Assembly (NCBI RefSeq): GCF_044542795.1
Contig: NZ_JBITVE010000002.1
Span: forward strand, 250,058 to 314,057
Direction of reading: 5' to 3'
DNA: 64,000 nt
From: Microbacterium sp. NPDC077663
GTDB lineage: Bacteria > Actinomycetota > Actinomycetes > Actinomycetales > Microbacteriaceae
Under the pieces are notes generated by a model. That model ran no database searches. It saw only the letters and a program-made list of their open reading frames with translations, and had not been told where the DNA came from. Positions 14,057-35,290 of the stretch are shown here, piece by piece. Within the stretch, counting starts at the first letter, position 1, and each line of letters begins with the position of its first letter. A program made the translations under genes and the position numbers.

Positions 14057-14827
14057 TCAGGATCGACGCGAACGGGATGCCGCGGCGAACGCGGCGACGC
14101 GGGTCTTCGAGTCGTCGGTGTCGAACGCCGCGCCGATCGTGCGGGCCTCGTCGTCGAGGTTCTCGGTGAGGGGCCGGTGGGCACCGGTGCGGACGAGGCG
14201 CTTGGCCTGTCCGAACGCGCCGGTGGCGCCGTCGAGCCAGGCCCGGGCGATCTGCTCGGCCCGGTCGCCGGGCTCATCGACCACCTCGGCCACGAGCCCC
14301 CACTCGAGCGCGGTCGGCGCGTCGATCGTGGTGTCGGTGAGCAGCAACTGCAGCGCGCGTCGCTGACCGACGGCGGCGGGCAGCAGGGTCGAGACACCGA
14401 GGTCGGGCGTCAGCCCGATGTTCGCGTACTTGCTGACGAACACCGCTCGCGGCGACGCCACGACGTAGTCCGCCGTCAGCATCAGGCCGAGCCCGCCACC
14501 GGCGACCGCACCCTGTACCGCCGCGACCATCGGGATGGACGACTCCACGAACGTCCGGATCCCGTCGTGGATCACCCCGGCCATCTCGGTGATCGTGGCG
14601 CCGTTGCCACCGGAGGAAGCCATCTGCACGACGTCGCCGCCGGCGCAGAAGGCCGGGCCCGCGGCATCCAGTACGATCGCGCCGACCGTGCTGTCGCTGG
14701 TCACCTCGTGCGCGAGGTCGCGCCAGCGGGTGCCCATCTCGAAGTCCATCGCGTTGAGGGATGCCGGGCGGTTGAAGGTCAGCCGCGCGAGCGCGCCGTC
14801 GCGCTGCAGCAGGATCGTGTCGCTCAT
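14057..14827 (-). CDS. enoyl-CoA hydratase/isomerase family protein
   Basis: 256 aa crotonase fold with oxyanion-hole region (AFCAGGD, GGGLGL). Confidence 0.8.
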   Translation of the reverse strand: MSDTILLQRDGALARLTFNRPASLNAMDFEMGTRWRDLAHEVTSDSTVGAIVLDAAGPAFCAGGDVVQMASSGGNGATITEMAGVIHDGIRTFVESSIPMVAAVQGAVAGGGLGLMLTADYVVASPRAVFVSKYANIGLTPDLGVSTLLPAAVGQRRALQLLLTDTTIDAPTALEWGLVAEVVDEPGDRAEQIARAWLDGATGAFGQAKRLVRTGAHRPLTENLDDEARTIGAAFDTDDSKTRVAAFAAASRSRRS

Positions 14828-14840
14828 CGGTTCTCCTGGG

Positions 14841-15602
14841 TCATTTGGGGGCCATGCGGATCGAGCCGTCGAGGCGGATCGTCTCGCCGTTGAGGTACCC
14901 GTTCTCGACGATGTGCTGCACCAGGGCGGCGTACTCGTCGGGCCGGCCGAGCCGCGCCGGGTACGGGACCTGCTGACCGAGCGACTCCTGCGCCGCTTCG
15001 GGGAGTCCCGCGAGCATCGGCGTCTCCATGATGCCGGGCGCGATCGTGCAGACCCGGATCGCCGAACGAGCGAGCTCCCGCGCGATCGGCAGGGTCATGG
15101 CGTGCACGCCGCCTTTGCTCGCCGAGTACGCGGGCTGCCCGATCTGGCCGTCGAAGGCCGCGACCGAGGCGGTGTTGACGATGACGCCGCGGTCACCGGA
15201 TGCCGTGGGCTCGGTCGCGGCCATCGCCGCCGCCGCGTGCGCGATGACGGTATAGGTGCCGATGAGGTTGATGCGGACGATGCGCTCAAAGTCGGCGACG
15301 GGGTTCGGCGACCCGTCGCGGGAGAGCACCTTGGCGGGTGGGGCGATGCCGGCGCAGTTGACGGCGACGCGCAATGGTGCGACCGCGGATGCCGCAGCCA
15401 CGGCAGCCTCGACCTGTGCGGCATCCGTCACATCGGCGGCGGCGAACGTGCCGTCGAGCTCGGCAGCGACGTCGGATCCCGCCGAGGTGGGCAGGTCGAC
15501 GACGACGACGTGCGCTCCCTGGGCGGCAAGACGGCGGGCGGTCGCGAGGCCGAGTCCGCTCGCGCCGCCGGTGACGAGGGCCGATGCTCCGGCGATGTCC
15601 AT
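14841..15602 (-). CDS. 3-hydroxyacyl-CoA dehydrogenase type-2-like SDR oxidoreductase
   Basis: Start at the internal ATG ([18 protein letters not shown]) with a strong GAAGGAGAG RBS; YSASK active site. Forms an operon with the two downstream genes. Confidence 0.8.
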
Positions 15603-15711
15603 GCGCTCTCCTTCGAACGGGATCGGGTTCCACCTTATGCGCGACTCGGTGCCACGAGGATGGGGTGCCTCCAGGGTAGCCGTCCGCGGCATCCGACGAC
15701 AGGATGGAGGG

Positions 15712-16437
15712 ATGTCCATCCCCCTGCCAGACGCACCGGTGCCGCCGATCGTGCGTCGCCTCGCGCGTGGCGCGGCACTCGTGCCGGTGTGGGCGAACAA
15801 GCTCGGCGGACAGACGTTCCGCACCGACGACGACAGATTCATCAAGGTCGGTCCGGTGCACCTCGAGACCTCGATGGCGGATGAAGCGGAGCGGATGGCA
15901 TGGGCCGCTCCCTACCTGCGTGTGCCGACGGTGGTCGAACAGGGCGACGACGGCGAGACGGAGTGGCTCGTGACCCGGACGATCGCGGGGCGTTCCGCCG
16001 TCGACCCAGAGTGGGTTGCGCGTCCCGAGACGGCCGTCCGGGCTGTCGGCGAGGGCCTGCGAGCCCTGCACGAGAGCCTGCCGGTGACATCCTGCCCCTT
16101 CGACTGGACGGTGCCGTCGCGGGTCGCGAACGCCGCCGCGCGGGGGGTGATCGTGCCCGACCCGCTGCGCGAGCCGCCCCCGATCGACCGCCTCGTGGTG
16201 TGCCACGGCGACGCGTGCGCCCCGAACACCCTCATCGGCGACGACGGCCGCTGGAGCGGACACGTCGACCTCGGCCAACTGGGCCTCGGCGACCGCTGGG
16301 CGGACATCGCCGTCGCCGCGATGAGCACCGGCTGGAACTACGGGCCCGGCTGGGACGGTCCGCTGCTCGAGGCCTACGGTGTCGAGCCCGACGGGGAGCG
16401 CCTGGCGTACTACCGCGACCTCTGGAACGCGACCTGA
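15712..16437 (+). CDS. aph: APH(3') family aminoglycoside O-phosphotransferase
   Basis: Start at the internal ATG after AGGATGGAGGG. Catalytic loop VVCHGDACAPN and DLGQLGLGDRWADIA closely resemble APH(3')-II (HGDACLPN ... GRLGVADRYQDIA). Confidence 0.8.
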   Translation: MSIPLPDAPVPPIVRRLARGAALVPVWANKLGGQTFRTDDDRFIKVGPVHLETSMADEAERMAWAAPYLRVPTVVEQGDDGETEWLVTRTIAGRSAVDPEWVARPETAVRAVGEGLRALHESLPVTSCPFDWTVPSRVANAAARGVIVPDPLREPPPIDRLVVCHGDACAPNTLIGDDGRWSGHVDLGQLGLGDRWADIAVAAMSTGWNYGPGWDGPLLEAYGVEPDGERLAYYRDLWNAT

Positions 16438-16441
16438 CCGC

Positions 16442-16786
16442 TCAGCGCATCGCGCCGTCGAAGAGCGCCGCCGCCGCCAGGTAGCCGGCGATCACCAGAG
16501 CGGTCGAGACCAGGGGTACCCACGTGAGGTCGCGCCCGGTGCGCCAGGCGACGAGGGCGGCCGCCGACGTGACGGCGACGCTCGCGAGGATCGACGCGCC
16601 GAACAGCATGCCCGCGGCATCCGCTGCCATCCCATCGCAGCCGGGCGTGCAGGCGCCGCCGGCGAAGACGGTGTGAAAGAACCACAGCGCCCCGGTGACC
16701 ACGACGGCGACCACCTGCAGGACGGCGACGGCGAGAACGGCCCCGGCACCGCTCCACCGCAGGCGCCGAGGGACGGTCGTCGTCAT
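16442..16786 (-). CDS. hypothetical small membrane protein
   Basis: 114 aa with 3-4 predicted TM helices. Preferred over the Arg-rich antisense ORF on the plus strand. Confidence 0.45.
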   Translation of the reverse strand: MTTTVPRRLRWSGAGAVLAVAVLQVVAVVVTGALWFFHTVFAGGACTPGCDGMAADAAGMLFGASILASVAVTSAAALVAWRTGRDLTWVPLVSTALVIAGYLAAAALFDGAMR

Positions 16787-16833
16787 GTCGCGGACGCTAG
16801 CAGGAGGATGCCCACGAGGGCCAGGATGGATCC

Positions 16834-17238
16834 GTGGCCGAGCACCCGCTGATGTTCCGCGAGGGCGACCCGTTGCTCGCCTTCGTCCGGCGTCACGCCC
16901 TCGCCCTCCCCGAGGCGAGGGAGAAGGTCAGTCACGGCCGGCCGGCGTTCTTCACCACGAAAGTCTTCGCCTACTTCGGCGGCTCGGTACGCCGTGGTCC
17001 CGGCGTCTTCGAGCGCCATGACGCGGCGGTCATGGTCCTGCCGGATCGAGACGACGAGCCGGCCCTGCGCCAGGACGCGCGGTTCTGGTCGCCGGCCTAC
17101 CTGGGCCCGTCGGGGTGGCTCGGGATCGATCTCGACGAGACCGATGAGACCGAGCTCGCCGAACTGCTCGACGCCTCGTACCGACGGACCGCGCCGGCAC
17201 GCCTCGTGCGCCGCCTCGACGGAGTCGAGGACGCATAG
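16834..17238 (+). CDS. MmcQ/YjbR family DNA-binding protein
   Basis: 134 aa with YjbR-like similarity. GTG start; an alternative ATG lies at 16852. Confidence 0.65.
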   Translation: MAEHPLMFREGDPLLAFVRRHALALPEAREKVSHGRPAFFTTKVFAYFGGSVRRGPGVFERHDAAVMVLPDRDDEPALRQDARFWSPAYLGPSGWLGIDLDETDETELAELLDASYRRTAPARLVRRLDGVEDA

Positions 17239-17247
17239 GCTCGTCCG

Positions 17248-17751
17248 GTGAGCGAACGGACGAGCACCGGGTCCCGCATCCTCGAGGTCGCCTGGGACGA
17301 CCCTCGCGCCGCGGCTCTGCGCGAAGAATTGGATGCCGACCTCGGCGCGCGGTACGACGGGTTCCACGGCGACGAACCCGCCGAGCGCAAGGTGGCGCGC
17401 TCCCGGGCGCTCGCCATGCACCCGGAGGAGATCGTCGCGACCCTCATCACGGCGGACGAGGACGGCACCCCGACAGGTCATGTCATCCTGCGCCGCCTCG
17501 GCACCGAATGGGAGATCAAGCGCCTCGTCGTCACCGCAGCAGCCCGAGGTCGCGGATTGGCGCGGGCGTTGATGACTGCGGCGCTGGACCGGGCGCGCGG
17601 GGGCGGCGCCGATCGGGTCATCCTGCAGACCGGCATCCCGCAGCCGGAGTCCATCGCGCTGTACGAGTCGCTCGGGTTCACCCGCATCCCGGTCTACGAG
17701 CCCTACATCGAGACGATGCCGCGCTCGGTGTGCTTCGCCTACCGGTTCTGA
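17248..17751 (+). CDS. GNAT family N-acetyltransferase
   Basis: 167 aa with acetyl-CoA motif (RGRGLARALMTAAL); GTG start. Confidence 0.75.
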   Translation: MSERTSTGSRILEVAWDDPRAAALREELDADLGARYDGFHGDEPAERKVARSRALAMHPEEIVATLITADEDGTPTGHVILRRLGTEWEIKRLVVTAAARGRGLARALMTAALDRARGGGADRVILQTGIPQPESIALYESLGFTRIPVYEPYIETMPRSVCFAYRF

Positions 17752-17852
17752 CCCCCGCGACGGATGCACGACCGGCGGTGCAGGAGTCGAGTCCCGGCCC
17801 GCCGCACCGCTCAGTAGCCCCCGCGATCGTGCAGACGTCGCGCCAGACCAAC

Positions 17853-17944
17853 GATCAGGCCGGGCCGGCGATCAGGCCAGGCCGGCGATCAGGCCAGGCC
17901 GGCGATCAGGCCAGGCCGGCGATCAGGCCAGGCCGGCGATCAGG
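17853..17944. repeat. 17 bp tandem repeat (GATCAGGCCAGGCCGGC) of about 5.5 units
   Basis: Head-to-tail copies counted directly; the first unit carries one substitution (ccGggccggc). The period is not a multiple of 3. The repeat abuts and includes the ecfT stop codon in the convergent spacer with the GNAT gene. Confidence 0.85.
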
Positions 17945-18728
17945 ACGGGCCAAGGATGAAGTTCCAGGTGCCGGCGGCGACGGCGGCGACCACCGCCACC
18001 GCAGCGATGCCCGCGCCGATCGCGATCAGGGCCCACTCGCGGCCCCCGAACGTCGACGTGCGCGCCCAGGTGCGGCGGCCCGGCGCTCCGAAGCCGCGGG
18101 CCTCCATCGCCGTCGCGAGCTTCGATCCCCGCCGGATCGACAGCACCAGGAGCGCGAAGGCCATCCCCGCGAACCGCCGCAGGCGCCCCCGATCCGCGAC
18201 TCCGCGCGCGCGACGGGCAAGCTCCAGCGATCGCCAATCGTCGATGAACAGGCCGATCATCCGCAGGCCGGCGAGCGCTCCCAGCACGAACCGCGCCGGC
18301 AGCCGGACGATCTGCGCCAGGCCGTCCGCGAGATCGGTCGGATCGACCGTGATGAACAGGACGACCGACGGCAGAGCGACGGCGAGCACGCGGAGCAGCG
18401 TCGCCGCGGCGAGTTCGAGGGAGCCTTCGCTGACGCGGATGAGCAGCCACTCGACGTACACGCGGCCGCCGGCTTCGCCGTACAGCGCGATCGTGACCGC
18501 TGTCAGCGGCGCCGCGATCCACACCGGCCAGGTGCGACGCCAGAACTCCGCCCAGCGGAGGCCTGCGAAGGGGATCAGGAGGCACTCGAGGAGGAGCGCC
18601 ACCGCCGCCGAGACCCAGTCCAGGGTGAACACCAGCGGGATCGCGACGAGACCACTGGCCGCCAGCTTCGCGACCGGGTTGATGCGGGCGACGACGCCGG
18701 TCCGAGCCGGACCGTCCAGGAGCGTCAC
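17940..18728 (-). CDS. ecfT: energy-coupling factor transporter transmembrane protein EcfT (CbiQ family)
   Basis: GTG start at 18728 overlapping the ATPase stop (GTGA). Multi-TM protein with a CbiQ-like C-terminal region. Confidence 0.75.
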   Translation of the reverse strand: MTLLDGPARTGVVARINPVAKLAASGLVAIPLVFTLDWVSAAVALLLECLLIPFAGLRWAEFWRRTWPVWIAAPLTAVTIALYGEAGGRVYVEWLLIRVSEGSLELAAATLLRVLAVALPSVVLFITVDPTDLADGLAQIVRLPARFVLGALAGLRMIGLFIDDWRSLELARRARGVADRGRLRRFAGMAFALLVLSIRRGSKLATAMEARGFGAPGRRTWARTSTFGGREWALIAIGAGIAAVAVVAAVAAGTWNFILGPS

Positions 18729-20179
18729 GATCCGACCCCCAGACGCACCTCGCGGGCGTGGAGCGCGCGGACCGCCTCGAGATCGTGGGTGATGACGACG
18801 ACCGCCGACCCCGCGTCGCGGAGCTCGGCGAGGAGCGCGATCAGCTGGGACCACGTCGTCGCGTCCTGCCCGAAGGTCGGTTCATCCAGCACGAGCACCC
18901 GGGGCGCCGTCGCCAGCATCGAGGCGACCGTGAGGCGCCGCTTCTCGCCTCCCGACAGCGTGTAGGGGTTCGCCGCGGCGAGGCGGGTCAGCCGCATCCG
19001 TTCCAGCAACCCGTCGACGGTGGCTGCGATCTCCGGCTCCGCGAGCCCGAGCGCCGTTGGGCCGATCATCAGTTCGGCGCGCACCGTCCGCGCGAGGAAC
19101 TGGTGCTCGGGGTCCTGGAAGACCGTCCCGATGCGTGTCAGGAGCTCTCGGGACGACCAGCGGATCGGATGCGGCCCGATGCCGCCCTGCAGAGCGCTCG
19201 TCGCCACGACCTCCCCCGCCGCCGGCGGCAGGAGCCCGGCCAGGGTCAGTCCGAGCGTCGACTTCCCGGCACCGTTCGGCCCGGTCACGGCGAGGACCTC
19301 ACCCGCCCGCACGTCGAGGTCGATGTCGGTGGCGACGGGATGGCCGGCGACGCGCTGCACCGCGAGGGCGCGCGCGGTCAGCAGCGTCTCGCCCGGTGCG
19401 GCGACGGGCGGGGCGGGTGCGACGGGCGGATGCCCCGGCACCCACACCCCTGCCTGCGCGAGAGTCGCACCGAGCGCCCCCAGCACCTGCTCCGGGGTGC
19501 CGTCGGCGACCACCCCGGGCGCGTCGGCACCACCGAGCACGATGACCCGGTCCACCAGGGGCAGCCACACGTCCACGCGATGCTCGACCACGACGAGGGT
19601 CGCGGGGTGGGCCCGCAGCATCGCCGCGACCGCGTCGCGCACCTCGGCGACCCCGTCCGGGTCGAGGTTCGCGGTCGGCTCGTCGAGCAGCACCAGCCCC
19701 GGCCGCATCGCGACCACGCCCGCGAGGGCGAGTCGCTGCTTCTGGCCACCCGAGAGCGCCTTCGTCGGTCGGTCCCGCGGGACGTCGAGACCCACCGCGG
19801 CCAGGGCCGCCTCCACCCGCGGCCAGATCTGCTCCCGCGGCACACCCAGGTTCTCGCACCCGAACGCGACGTCGTCACCGACGCGGGCGAGGATCACCTG
19901 CGAGTCCGGGTCCTGCAGGACGAGGCCGGCACGCCCGCGCTGCTCGGCGGCGCGGACGCCGTCGAGGAGGATGTCCCCCTCCATCTCCCCCTCGTCGGCT
20001 CCGCCGAGGACCCCCGCGAGGCCGTGGAGCAGCGTGGACTTGCCGGCGCCGGACGCGCCGAGCAGCAGGACGCGCTCCCCGGGTGCGATCGTGACGTCGA
20101 CCCCGCGCACGGCCCAGGCGTTGCGCGACGCGTGGCGCCACCCCCACCCTCGGACCTCGACGCGTGCGGGATGCGTCAT
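18725..20179 (-). CDS. ecfA: ECF transporter ATP-binding protein, fused duplicated ABC ATPase (EcfA1-EcfA2, YkoD-like)
   Basis: Two Walker A motifs (GASGAGKST, GPNGAGKST) and two ABC signature motifs (LSGGQKQR, LSGGEKRR) in 484 aa. Confidence 0.85.
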   Translation of the reverse strand: MTHPARVEVRGWGWRHASRNAWAVRGVDVTIAPGERVLLLGASGAGKSTLLHGLAGVLGGADEGEMEGDILLDGVRAAEQRGRAGLVLQDPDSQVILARVGDDVAFGCENLGVPREQIWPRVEAALAAVGLDVPRDRPTKALSGGQKQRLALAGVVAMRPGLVLLDEPTANLDPDGVAEVRDAVAAMLRAHPATLVVVEHRVDVWLPLVDRVIVLGGADAPGVVADGTPEQVLGALGATLAQAGVWVPGHPPVAPAPPVAAPGETLLTARALAVQRVAGHPVATDIDLDVRAGEVLAVTGPNGAGKSTLGLTLAGLLPPAAGEVVATSALQGGIGPHPIRWSSRELLTRIGTVFQDPEHQFLARTVRAELMIGPTALGLAEPEIAATVDGLLERMRLTRLAAANPYTLSGGEKRRLTVASMLATAPRVLVLDEPTFGQDATTWSQLIALLAELRDAGSAVVVITHDLEAVRALHAREVRLGVGS

Positions 20180-20182
20180 GCG

Positions 20183-20815
20183 TCAGACACGACTGCGCGC
20201 TTCGCGTCCGATGGCGAATCGGTCGAGCGCACCGGTGGCGGCGAGTCCGCGAGCCAGGAACCATGAGAGGGCGCCCGCGATGACCGCGCCCGACAGGACG
20301 GTGGAGACGAGGTAGACACCCGTGAACGCGGCGTCCGCCCCCGCGTACCAGAGGACGAGGTTGTTGATGCCGCCGGCGAGCGCAGCGCCTGCGCCGGCGA
20401 GGATCGCGACCGGAAGGGTGAACCGACGGTACAGGAAGAGGAGCACGATCAGCTCGGCGCCGAGGCCCTGGACGAGTCCCGCCTCGATGGTGAGGAAGCC
20501 GCCCCAGCTGTTGCCCACGAGCGCCGACACGACGGCCGCGAGGGTCTCGGTGTACATCGCGGCGCCGGGCTTGCGGATGATCAGGGCACCGAGCACCCCG
20601 GCGAACAGCCAGGGTCCGTCCAGGAGCCCCTGCAGGCCGGGCAGCAACGGCTCGAGCAGCGTCTTCGGGCCGAGGTAGCCGATGTTCCAGAGCAGGAAGA
20701 TGAGGCCGGACGCGACACCGAGCACGGAGGCCACGACGATGTCGATGACCCGCCAGCGGAAGCGGTTCGGCGATGAGGTGGTCCGGGTCTCGGACGTGGA
20801 CGCGACAGCGTGCAT
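20183..20815 (-). CDS. ykoE: ECF transporter S component (YkoE-like, HMP/thiamine-related)
   Basis: 210 aa multi-TM protein with an IIRKPG-like motif. It sits first in the S-A-T gene order directly downstream of a TPP riboswitch. Confidence 0.7.
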   Translation of the reverse strand: MHAVASTSETRTTSSPNRFRWRVIDIVVASVLGVASGLIFLLWNIGYLGPKTLLEPLLPGLQGLLDGPWLFAGVLGALIIRKPGAAMYTETLAAVVSALVGNSWGGFLTIEAGLVQGLGAELIVLLFLYRRFTLPVAILAGAGAALAGGINNLVLWYAGADAAFTGVYLVSTVLSGAVIAGALSWFLARGLAATGALDRFAIGREARSRV

Positions 20816-20821
20816 TTCGTT

Positions 20822-20912
20822 CTCCTCCCTGCGCCGGCATGATCCGGATCAGGTTCGACGGTCGAAGCGTGGATCGCTTCCTCTCAGCCCGGCTCACCGG
20901 ACTCCCGTGGTT
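20822..20912 (-). promoter_or_regulatory. TPP (THI-box) riboswitch
   Basis: The minus-strand sequence CACGGGAGUCCGGUGAGCCGGGCUGAGAGG...CGAACCUGAUCCGGAUCAUGCCGGCGCAGGGAGGAGAAC matches the THI element core (GCUGAGA ... ACCUGAUCYGGAUAAUGCCAGCGNAGGGA). The RBS GGGAGGAG is embedded at its 3' end. Confidence 0.8.
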
Positions 20913-20956
20913 GTGCGTCGAGTATAGCCACAGGCAGACCGCGCTACCGTGGTCCG

Positions 20957-22342
20957 GTGACCGTGGACGACGCTGATCCCCGTATGCGCCGGCGCCGGCG
21001 CGATGCGAAGCCTGCCTCCCCCTCCCCCGACCACACGGCGCTCGGCTGGGTGGATGACGAGGGGCGCCCGGTGAGCGCCGCACAGCCGCGCCCGGCCACC
21101 TTCGACCTGCTGCCTCCCCCGCGTCGACGCCGCGGCATCCCCCTGGCGGTCCTCGGTGTCCCGGCCCTCGCCGTGCTCGCGATCGCCACGGCCTACACCA
21201 CCGCCATGCTGCTCTGGCCGCTGAACAACGTGTCGCCCACGACGACCACGACCGATGCCGCTGCGCTGACCGGCGCGCCGTCCGCGATCGCGTGGCCGGC
21301 GGACGGTGAGTCCGCCGTCGGCATCGCCGGATTCGCTCCGGCGGCCTCGTCCACGACGCCCGCGCAGATGGCCAGCACGGCCAAGCTGGTCACGGCGCTC
21401 GTGATCCTCGACCAGGCGCCTCTCGCCGCGGGCGAGCAGGGTCCCGCCTACGAGTTCACCTACGCCGATCGTCAGGAGTACTGGCGCTACGTCGCGCAGA
21501 ACCAGTCCGCCCTCAACGTGCCCGACGACGGGTCCCTGACGGAGTACCAGATGCTCCAGGGGATGCTCATCGCCTCGGCCAGCAACTACGCCGACCGCCT
21601 CGCCACCGACGCCTTCGGATCCGTCGAGGACTACGTCACCGCCGCGAACGCCTGGCTCGCCGAGAACGGACTCGACGGGATCACGGTGACGGATGCCTCC
21701 GGCTACGACCGTGGCAACGTCGCGACGCCGGCGGCCATGGTCGCGCTGGCGGAGAAGGCCATGGCCGACCCCGTCGTCGCGGAGATCGTCGCGACGGAGT
21801 CCGCGGAGCTGCCCGGCGCCGGCGAGTTCGAGAACACGAATGCCCTCCTCGGCACCGACGGTGTCGTGGGCCTGAAGACCGGAAGCTACGCCGGCTCGTA
21901 CAACCTCGTCGCCGCCCGGACGGTCGATCTGGGCGGCGGCGCCACGACGCTGTTCGCGTCGGTCGCCGAGGCGCCCACCGATGGCGCCCGCGTCGACGAG
22001 ACCGAGGCCCTGCTCGACGCGGTCGCCCAGGAGGCATCCGTCACCACGACCCTGCCAGCCGGGACCGTCGTCGGAGAGGTCACCACCGCCTGGGGGGCGA
22101 CCACCACGGTCGTCACCGACGAGGACGCCGCGTTGCACCTGTGGAACGGCGCGACGGCCACGACCGAGGCATCCTTCGACATCGATGCCGACGCCGCGGC
22201 CGGAGCGGATGCCGGCACGGTCACACTCTCGGGCCCGGCCGACGAGGTCGACGTGCCGGTGAGTGTGACGACGGCGATCTCCGGCCCCGACCCGTGGTGG
22301 CGTCTCACCCACCCGATGGAGCTCGTGGGCGCGAACGGCTGA
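20957..22342 (+). CDS. D-alanyl-D-alanine carboxypeptidase (peptidase S11, PBP5-like)
   Basis: SxxK (STAK), SxN (SASN) and KTG (GLKTGS) motifs; N-terminal signal/TM region. GTG start; an alternative ATG lies at about 20984. Confidence 0.8.
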   Translation: MTVDDADPRMRRRRRDAKPASPSPDHTALGWVDDEGRPVSAAQPRPATFDLLPPPRRRRGIPLAVLGVPALAVLAIATAYTTAMLLWPLNNVSPTTTTTDAAALTGAPSAIAWPADGESAVGIAGFAPAASSTTPAQMASTAKLVTALVILDQAPLAAGEQGPAYEFTYADRQEYWRYVAQNQSALNVPDDGSLTEYQMLQGMLIASASNYADRLATDAFGSVEDYVTAANAWLAENGLDGITVTDASGYDRGNVATPAAMVALAEKAMADPVVAEIVATESAELPGAGEFENTNALLGTDGVVGLKTGSYAGSYNLVAARTVDLGGGATTLFASVAEAPTDGARVDETEALLDAVAQEASVTTTLPAGTVVGEVTTAWGATTTVVTDEDAALHLWNGATATTEASFDIDADAAAGADAGTVTLSGPADEVDVPVSVTTAISGPDPWWRLTHPMELVGANG

Positions 22343-35144: not shown

Positions 35145-35154
35145 CGCGGGTCGG

Positions 35155-35290
35155 GTGTCGCGGCCCGGGCGGCACGCGATGGGCGGGCGTCCCGGGCCGG
35201 GCGTCACGCGATGCAATGGATGCCGGGCGACACGCCGCGGCATCCGCTCTCGCGCCGGGGTGTCGCGGCGGATCTGTTGCATCCGTTGAC
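35155..35290. repeat. copy A of the roughly 90 bp MITE/REP-like repeat, with a partial 5' duplication
   Basis: GTCACGCGATGCAATGGATGCCGGGCG...GGCATCCGCTC...GTGTCGCGGCGGATCTGTTGCATCCGT is nearly identical to 52738-52826. It is preceded by a partial duplicate (GGCACGCGATGGGCGGGCG) and lies between two convergent MFS genes. Confidence 0.6.

What the first reader, a model, noticed from the sequence alone, without database searches (positions are those of the whole stretch)
17853..17944. 17 bp tandem repeat (~5.5 units) fused to the ecfT stop codon
(GATCAGG CCAGGCCGGC)n is perfectly head-to-tail, with a single substitution in the first unit. The period is not a multiple of 3, so it is non-coding, yet the last unit supplies the ecfT TGA stop. 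Such precise micro- or minisatellites are unusual in high-GC actinobacterial chromosomes. Copy-number change here would alter the ecfT C-terminus or its 3' UTR, so it is a possible contingency locus, or it may simply be a replication-slippage hotspot.
Basis: seen in the sequence. Interest (0 to 1): 0.55.

Follow-up and report, generated by a model that had tools for sequence, protein, structure and literature searches.

The report
Young 17-bp minisatellite after ecfT stop
A short DNA motif has been copied about six times in a row just after the end of a vitamin-transporter gene in one Microbacterium strain; it is real, but it does not change the protein and looks like an ordinary, recent replication-slippage product.

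Summary
Window 17852-17944 holds 5.5 head-to-tail copies of a 17-bp unit with one substitution, in the first unit. The TGA stop of the minus-strand ecfT gene lies in the last, partial unit. A decayed extra copy sits at 17841-17852.

The array starts at the stop codon, and the C-terminus ...TWNFILGPS* is unchanged in every close Microbacterium homologue. Whole-unit gain or loss therefore cannot alter EcfT. It would only lengthen the 3' untranslated stretch between the stop and a conserved ~87-nt hairpin that separates ecfT from a convergent GNAT gene.

The source is Microbacterium sp. NPDC077663. About 26 orthologous loci from its closest relatives (about 81-89% nt identity where measured) have either a 15-bp spacer or the hairpin alone. 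None has the array. The tandem pattern is absent from 185,579 species genomes, JGI metagenomes and IMG/VR.

An independent k=31 assembly of the same strain enters the array from both sides and breaks inside it. The unit is nested, GATCGCC(GGCCT)2, quasi-palindromic and slippage-prone.

Verdict: a young, lineage-specific minisatellite (a candidate VNTR), most likely neutral and not a contingency locus. Stop-codon-overlapping VNTRs, including 17-bp ones, are documented in Yersinia pestis. Copy-number polymorphism could not be tested because no conspecific genome was available.

The parts
17852..17944 (.). 17-bp tandem array, 5.5 copies. + strand unit GATCAGGCCAGGCCGGC. On the ecfT mRNA strand it reads CCTGATCGCCGGCCTGG, or in rotated form GATCGCC(GGCCT)2.
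   Evidence: TRF score 179 with 98% matches. Unit list and 82-nt perfect run.
17853..17869 (.). Variant unit (G instead of A at 17862). It is the unit furthest from ecfT.
   Evidence: The same variant is present in the independent Logan contig L060.
17841..17852 (.). Decayed extra unit next to the hairpin. It matches 8 of 12 further positions, and three of the four differences are G->A on the + strand. It occupies the same place as the single-copy post-stop sequence of relatives.
17940..17942 (-). ecfT TGA stop codon, inside the last partial repeat unit.
   Evidence: Translation ends ...GTWNFILGPS*. Sequence.
17940..18728 (-). ecfT, the T component of the ECF transporter (CbiQ family), 262 aa. 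The GTG start at 18728 overlaps the ecfA stop.
   Evidence: PF02361 at E 2.4e-20. All homologues are 262-263 aa. The exact sequence equals NCBI MFI8632679.1.
17756..17842 (.). Long imperfect hairpin (32 predicted pairs) between the convergent genes. It is inferred to be a bidirectional terminator and has no U-tract.
   Evidence: Consensus fold of 5 orthologous sequences at -45.7 kcal/mol, with 3 pairs showing compensatory changes. It is the only structure kept in the centroid fold of the whole spacer.
17248..17751 (+). Convergent GNAT N-acetyltransferase gene.
   Evidence: PF00583 at E 3.8e-17. Exact match to MFI8632678.1.
18725..20179 (-). Fused double ATPase (EcfA1-EcfA2) of the same operon.
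   Evidence: Two ABC_tran domains. TIGR04520 and TIGR04521.
20183..20815 (-). S (substrate-capture) component of the operon, PF09819.
20809..20918 (-). TPP riboswitch heading the operon.
   Evidence: RF00059 at 58.9 bits against a gathering score of 54.3.

Best explanation
This is a young, lineage-specific minisatellite, a candidate VNTR. It arose by tandem duplication and slipped-strand expansion of the 17 bases that include and follow the ecfT stop codon. It sits in the 3' untranslated stretch of a TPP-riboswitch-controlled ECF (ykoEDC-like) thiamine-related transporter operon, between the stop codon and a conserved hairpin that separates ecfT from a convergent GNAT gene. Because the first copy keeps the complete coding end and the stop, the duplication has no effect on the protein and is tolerated. 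The most likely functional consequence is none, or at most a minor change in 3'-end RNA structure. Shown here: the anatomy, the unchanged protein, the absence from all relatives, and the self-pairing ability of the unit. Inferred: slippage as the mechanism, neutrality, and the terminator role of the hairpin.
For: (1) The array is exact and head-to-tail with no spacers.
(2) It starts 2 nt before the TGA, and EcfT ends ...TWNFILGPS* at the same position in the closest homologues, which have no repeat.
(3) Orthologous spacers in about 26 loci from the closest relatives (EcfT 90-97% identical) show two states, neither with a tandem repeat. One state is a 15-bp spacer with no hairpin: L002-L005 and L070-L075. 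The other is a spacer of roughly 100-140 bp with the hairpin only: L006, L008 and L061-L069. The hairpin-only relatives read TGATC... directly after the stop, so the array grew out of pre-existing post-stop sequence.
(4) The 1.4-unit pattern has no exact match in 185,579 species-representative genomes, JGI metagenomes or IMG/VR. The spacer has no match in plasmids or phages. Neither the unit nor the hairpin recurs in the window or in the other fetched loci beyond chance coding matches. It is therefore not a dispersed or mobile element.
(5) There is a divergence gradient: a decayed copy next to the hairpin, then one unit with a single substitution, then four identical units next to the gene. 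This fits recent expansion and homogenisation.
(6) The unit is internally repetitive, GATCGCC(GGCCT)2, and is built from the self-complementary blocks GATC, GCCGGC and GGCC. As single-stranded DNA the array folds to -26.7 kcal/mol (z -2.7) on one strand and -26.2 (z -1.7) on the other, in many alternative registers. This is the kind of substrate that favours slipped-strand intermediates.
(7) The array is real in reads. Two contigs of a k=31 assembly of SRR35629251 are 100% identical to the window over 3814 and 3645 nt. They enter the array from opposite flanks, one of them carrying the variant unit, and both stop inside it.
(8) There is precedent. In Yersinia pestis 10 of 88 VNTRs overlap stop codons, including a 17-bp unit, and the authors judge that these have little effect on the ORF (PMC3689786).
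Against: Copy-number variability, which is what makes a tandem repeat a VNTR, was not observed. The only other data set with this strain's sequence is probably the same isolate, and the nearest other genomes are only about 89% identical at the locus. Neutrality is inferred, not measured. An 85-nt structured insertion between a stop codon and a terminator could affect mRNA decay or termination. An independent 15-bp tandem repeat that also starts at the ecfT stop occurs in Microbacterium sp. Root166. This could hint at something locus-specific rather than pure chance.
Confidence: 0.8

Rival explanations
1. The array is a functional, copy-number-tunable 3'-UTR element, a contingency-like switch. 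Changes in unit number would alter RNA structure upstream of the terminator hairpin. That would modulate termination, mRNA stability or convergent-transcription interference for the thiamine ECF operon or the GNAT gene.
For: The array is transcribed as part of the ecf 3' end if the hairpin is the terminator. It can form stable alternative structures. A second, independent tandem repeat begins at the ecfT stop in Microbacterium sp. Root166.
Against: Every relative does without it, including those with only a 15-bp spacer. The centroid fold of the whole spacer keeps the terminator hairpin and gives the array no defined structure. The spacer fold is not better than shuffles (z -1.4). There is no promoter-like site and no Rfam family. 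The gene is a riboswitch-controlled housekeeping transporter, not the surface, restriction or virulence type of gene that carries contingency repeats. No variability data exist.
Confidence: 0.07
2. Assembly artefact. The array exists, but its length or copy number is mis-assembled (collapsed or expanded), or the two flanks are wrongly joined.
For: Short-read k=31 contigs cannot bridge it. 17893-17914 is not covered by either Logan contig. Tandem repeats are classic sites of collapse.
Against: Both flanks lead into the same unit sequence, and synteny (ecfT next to the convergent GNAT) is the same in all close relatives. The perfect periodic run is 82 nt. That is shorter than the largest k (95) and the 150-nt reads of the published NPDC pipeline, so single k-mers and reads can span it and fix the copy number (PMC10760148). 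It is assumed, not shown, that this genome went through that pipeline.
Confidence: 0.05
3. The array is a protein-binding site array (iteron-like) or a remnant of a mobile or dispersed repeat family (REP/MITE/MIRU-like).
For: 17-22 bp direct repeats are typical of iterons (own knowledge). The unit contains the palindromic blocks GATC, GCCGGC, GGCC and CCWGG, which could be recognition sites.
Against: There is no other copy of the unit or the hairpin in the 64-kb window or in about 350 kb of related loci beyond chance coding matches. It is absent from plasmids, phages, viral contigs, genomes and metagenomes. No replication or partition gene is adjacent. It is absent from all relatives at the same locus.
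Confidence: 0.03

Closest known systems
Bacterial VNTR / minisatellite loci that overlap a stop codon (for example Yersinia pestis M59/ms05, 17-bp unit TTAGCCCATATCAGTAA at the 3' end of YPO1697; PMC3689786)
   Same: The units are 17 bp and head-to-tail. The stop codon lies inside the repeat. The gene product is unaffected by unit number. The location is intergenic, at a gene's 3' end.
   Different: Variability between strains is documented for the Y. pestis loci but is untested here. The organism here is a high-GC actinobacterium, and the unit is quasi-palindromic with a nested 5-nt duplication.
MIRU-VNTR loci of Mycobacterium tuberculosis
   Same: They are actinobacterial, intergenic tandem repeats at gene ends whose units can overlap flanking stop or start codons (own knowledge, Supply et al. 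1997). They are thought to change by slippage.
   Different: MIRU units are 40-100 bp and belong to a family dispersed over about 40 loci. This unit is 17 bp and occurs at a single locus, with no other copy found.
Simple-sequence contingency loci (Haemophilus, Neisseria, Campylobacter)
   Same: They are slippage-prone tandem repeats next to a gene.
   Different: Contingency repeats have 1-9 bp units and lie within coding regions or promoters, so that unit changes switch expression. Here the array is after the stop codon, cannot shift the frame, and no promoter is near.

Membership tests
Minisatellite / VNTR | Head-to-tail copies of one unit with no spacers | tested here: met
   5.5 copies, 98% matches and 0 indels. 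82-nt perfect periodic run.
Minisatellite / VNTR | Unit of roughly 10-100 bp | tested here: met
   Period 17.
Minisatellite / VNTR | Copy number differs between strains of the species | not testable with these tools
   The only other data with this sequence (SRR35629251) is 100% identical over 7.4 kb and breaks in the array. The nearest other genomes are about 89% identical and have a single copy. A flank-specific pattern has no metagenome hit.
Minisatellite / VNTR | Local origin from the flanking sequence (not imported) | tested here: met
   Relatives carry TGATC... after the same stop. A decayed unit occupies the ancestral position. There are no hits elsewhere.
Simple-sequence contingency locus | Repeat lies in a coding region or promoter, so that unit gain or loss switches or alters expression | tested here: not met
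   The array begins at the stop codon of the last gene of the operon. The C-terminus is identical in repeat-less relatives. No promoter-like site is present.
Simple-sequence contingency locus | Short unit (1-9 bp) | tested here: not met
   The unit is 17 bp.
Simple-sequence contingency locus | Associated gene is of the surface, host-interaction or restriction-modification type | tested here: not met
   The operon is a TPP-riboswitch-controlled ECF transporter.
MIRU-like / REP / MITE dispersed repeat | Multiple dispersed copies in the genome | tested here: not met
   No further copy in the 64-kb window or the fetched loci. The rest of the genome could not be scanned.
CRISPR array | Repeats separated by unique spacers | tested here: not met
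   Units abut directly.
Iteron array | Adjacent replication initiator gene or origin context | tested here: not met
   The neighbours are ecfT, GNAT, YjbR and APH genes. There is no plasmid or phage similarity.

The most novel reading that the evidence does not exclude
The array, and the independent stop-anchored 15-bp repeat in Microbacterium sp. Root166, mark the ecfT 3' end as a recurrent site where tandem duplication expands a very short convergent-gene spacer. Unit number would then tune 3'-end RNA structure, termination or convergent-transcription interference of a thiamine-transporter operon. This would make it a copy-number-variable 3'-UTR regulator rather than junk.
Probability: 0.05. 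Interest if true: 0.45.

Novelty: new member of a known kind. Interest (0 to 1): 0.1.

Why it matters
It matters little beyond bookkeeping. The locus could serve as a strain-typing (VNTR) marker for this Microbacterium lineage. It is also a clean example of how a tandem duplication that spans a stop codon has no effect on the protein and so can expand freely. It is a practical warning that k=31 assemblies break here. Only if unit number were shown to affect expression of the riboswitch-controlled operon would it become biologically interesting.

Tried and rejected
- Exact search for 1.4 tandem units in GTDB species genomes, JGI metagenomes and IMG/VR found nothing.
- A lineage-specific flank pattern in metagenomes, meant to find conspecific strains, found nothing.
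- blastn of the spacer against plasmids and phages found nothing.
- Rfam at gathering threshold gave only the TPP riboswitch. A permissive scan of the spacer gave only sub-threshold chance hits: hya 23 bits against 56.8, and nhaA-II 20.6 against 70.4.
- The promoter and U-tract terminator scan of 17000-19000 found none.
- A search for other copies of the hairpin or the unit in the window and all loci found only the orthologous hairpins in L006 and L008, plus 13-17-nt matches inside other genes. This is as expected, because the reverse strand reads a common codon pattern for L-I-A-G-L. For that reason a single-unit scan of the genome collection was not run.
- I considered that the unit derives from the last four ecfT codons. 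CTTGGCCCGTCCTGATC matches the unit at 12 of 17 positions, but only 5 of the 10 positions outside the TRF boundary match, which is not significant. It is kept as a hint only.
- The long + strand ORF 17508-18965 that runs through the array is antisense to ecfT, and I disregarded it as unlikely to be coding; it was not tested.

Full report
**Observation**

The sequence at 17852-17944 is a perfect head-to-tail tandem array. Tandem Repeats Finder gives period 17, 5.5 copies, 98% matches, no indels and score 179. This is the top score of 82 rows in the window; the next best is 96.

- 17853: GATCAGGCCgGGCCGGC (variant)
- 17870, 17887, 17904, 17921: four exact GATCAGGCCAGGCCGGC
- 17938-17944: the partial GATCAGG

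The longest strictly 17-periodic run is 17863-17944, 82 nt. With up to 3 mismatches the 17-mer has 6 matches in the window against 0.9 expected. No shuffle out of 100 reaches 6, and the only match outside the array (3522, 3 mismatches) is chance level.

Just outside the TRF boundary, 17841-17852 still matches the unit at 8 of 12 positions. Three of the four differences are G->A. I read this as a decayed additional copy.

**Context**

The array lies in the 188-bp spacer between two convergent genes.
- On the + strand, a GNAT acetyltransferase gene ends at 17751 (PF00583).
- On the minus strand, the T component of an ECF transporter ends with TGA at 17942-17940 (PF02361 CbiQ, E 2.4e-20). The 304-aa ORF in the mechanical list is too long. 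All homologues are 262-263 aa, which puts the start at GTG 18728, overlapping the stop of the upstream gene.
- Upstream on the same strand are a fused double ATPase (18725-20179) and a PF09819 S component (20183-20815).
- A TPP riboswitch sits at 20809-20918, scoring 58.9 bits against a gathering score of 54.3.

This is therefore a riboswitch-controlled, dedicated thiamine-related ECF operon of the ykoEDC type. That naming comes from my own knowledge of the Bacillus subtilis system.

Read on the mRNA strand, the end of the operon is...CTT GGC CCG TCC TGA TCGCCGGCCTGGCC (TGATCGCCGGCCTGGCC)x3 TGATCGCCGGCCcGGCC TGATCGttGGtCTGGCg CGACGTC..., followed by the hairpin and then the GNAT stop. Every unit starts with the stop triplet, and the array includes the last two bases of the Ser codon.

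**Does it touch the protein?**

It does not. EcfT ends ...GTWNFILGPS* in the window. It ends the same way in the closest relatives, 90-97% identical, with the TGA at the same place although they have no repeat.

The unique coding sequence anchors the first copy, so gain or loss of whole units can only change the length of the untranslated stretch.

**Source and reality of the array**

The exact EcfT and GNAT sequences are those of Microbacterium sp. NPDC077663 (MFI8632679.1 and MFI8632678.1).

Two contigs of the Logan assembly of run SRR35629251 are 100% identical to the window. They cover 17915-21728 and 14248-17892. They enter the array from opposite sides, one of them carrying the variant unit, and both end inside it. 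That is what a k=31 de Bruijn graph does when a periodic run exceeds k plus the period; that Logan uses k=31 is my own knowledge. Reads therefore support both junctions and at least about three perfect units.

The published NPDC pipeline uses 2x150 Illumina reads and SPAdes with k up to 95 (PMC10760148). The 82-nt perfect run is shorter than that k, so the assembled copy number can be fixed by single k-mers or reads. That this particular genome went through the same pipeline is an assumption.

**Comparison with relatives**

I fetched 55 orthologous loci from species-representative genomes. I also fetched further loci for the closest protein-cluster members. The nearest are only about 89% identical in DNA across the locus: NPDC079995 and M. 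oleivorans P10. No conspecific genome was available.

In the M. oleivorans / M. marinum group the ecfT-GNAT spacer has three states:
- A: 15 bp, no hairpin (L002-L005, L070-L075)
- B: roughly 100-140 bp with a long hairpin and no tandem repeat (L006, L008, L061-L069)
- C: the window, with the hairpin plus the array

State B reads TCC TGA TCCGCCCGATGGTG CGACGTC.... The window's decayed unit TGATCGTTGGTCTGGCG occupies exactly the same 17 positions before CGACGTC. The array therefore grew out of the pre-existing post-stop sequence in the lineage leading to this strain.

The tandem pattern (1.4 units with the variable base masked) has no exact match in 185,579 species genomes, in JGI metagenomes or in IMG/VR. 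A flank-specific pattern finds no conspecific metagenome contig. The spacer has no similarity in plasmids or phages. Neither the unit nor the hairpin recurs in the window or the other loci, apart from 13-17-nt matches in other genes. Those are expected because the reverse strand reads CTG ATC GCC GGC CTG, a common high-GC way of writing L-I-A-G-L.

**The hairpin**

The sequence 17756-17842 folds into a 32-pair imperfect hairpin. The hairpin is conserved in the state-B relatives, and three pairs show compensatory changes. It is the only structure retained in the centroid fold of the whole spacer RNA.

It has no U-tract, and the simple terminator scan does not call it. I infer that it is the bidirectional terminator of the two convergent genes, which is common for actinobacterial 3' ends (own knowledge). 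This is not shown. The array would then be transcribed at the end of the ecf mRNA, between the stop and the terminator.

**Mechanism**

On the mRNA strand the unit is GATCGCC-GGCCT-GGCCT. This is a 7-mer plus an internal 5-nt tandem duplication, assembled from the self-complementary blocks GATC, GCCGGC and GGCC.

As single-stranded DNA the array folds to -26.7 kcal/mol (z -2.7) on one strand and -26.2 kcal/mol (z -1.7) on the other. The minimum-energy structure has a very low frequency in the ensemble, meaning many alternative registers. Such sequences favour slipped-strand intermediates.

The copies show a gradient: decayed next to the hairpin, then one substitution, then four identical next to the gene. 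This fits a recent expansion. A tandem duplication that spans a stop codon leaves the first copy of the coding end intact, so it is one of the few duplications at a gene end that selection does not remove. This is enough to explain why the array is 'fused' to the stop.

My best explanation, at about 0.8, is a young and most likely neutral minisatellite.

**Rivals**

- A regulatory, copy-number-tunable 3' UTR (about 0.07) is not excluded. However, relatives function with a 15-bp spacer. The array has no defined structure in the ensemble and does not disturb the hairpin. No promoter or known RNA family is present. The gene class is not that of contingency loci.
- Mis-assembly of the copy number (about 0.05) is unlikely for the reasons given above, but it was not checked at read level.
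- A binding-site array or mobile-element remnant (about 0.03) is contradicted by the absence of other copies and of any replication context.

**Known parallels**

In Yersinia pestis, 10 of 88 VNTRs overlap stop codons. These include M59/ms05, with a 17-bp unit ending in TAA at the 3' end of YPO1697. The authors note that copy-number variation there has little effect on the ORF (PMC3689786). The kind is therefore well known, and this is a new instance in a Microbacterium.

It is not a MIRU, because the unit is too short and is not dispersed. It is not a contingency locus, because position and unit size both fail. It is not a CRISPR, because there are no spacers.

Such arrays are uncommon but not extraordinary.

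**Verdict**

The one open point is whether the copy number actually varies, which needs read-level or conspecific-strain data.

Noticed in passing
L007:3277-3327 (Microbacterium sp. Root166, NZ_LMGL01000001.1): There is an independent tandem repeat of 15/14-bp units, about 3.5 copies, 84% matches. It reads GGACCGGAGTGAGCC GGACCGGAGTGAGCC GCGCCGAGTGAGCC.... It also starts at the last codons and TGA stop of the orthologous ecfT and fills the short spacer to a different convergent gene. This is a second case of stop-codon-spanning tandem duplication at the same gene end.
   Followed up: partly
window 20809-20918 (-): A TPP riboswitch (RF00059, 58.9 bits) lies directly upstream of the PF09819 S component. 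The 'ecf' operon is therefore a thiamine-related, riboswitch-controlled ykoEDC-type transporter rather than a general ECF module.
   Followed up: partly
window 17756-17842; L006:3302-3390; L008:3323-3409; L061:3800-3890: A long conserved hairpin between ecfT and the convergent GNAT gene is present in some close relatives. In others (M. oleivorans type strains, LKL04 group) it is cleanly absent, and the two stop codons are only 15 bp apart. This is a presence/absence polymorphism of a putative bidirectional terminator. There is no other copy in the window.
   Followed up: partly
L017:3290-3440 and L014:3330-3420: Other Microbacterium species carry different hairpin-forming repeats downstream of ecfT. 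M. mangrovi has two ~55-nt copies of GGATCCGTCACGA...TCGTGACGGATCGAGCC. L014 has GCGAATCACC inverted repeats. The gene downstream of ecfT also differs between species. This spacer is a generally fluid region.
   Followed up: no
L035:5518-5756 and L037:5560-5740: These are 73-bp tandem arrays (2.5-3.3 copies, 92-100% identical) a few kb downstream of ecfT in two Microbacteriaceae genomes. The sequence looks like tandem tRNA genes on the reverse strand. This was not checked with a tRNA finder.
   Followed up: no
window 35152-35213: This is the second-best tandem repeat in the window: period 32, 1.9 copies, 86% matches, score 96. It was not examined.
   Followed up: no
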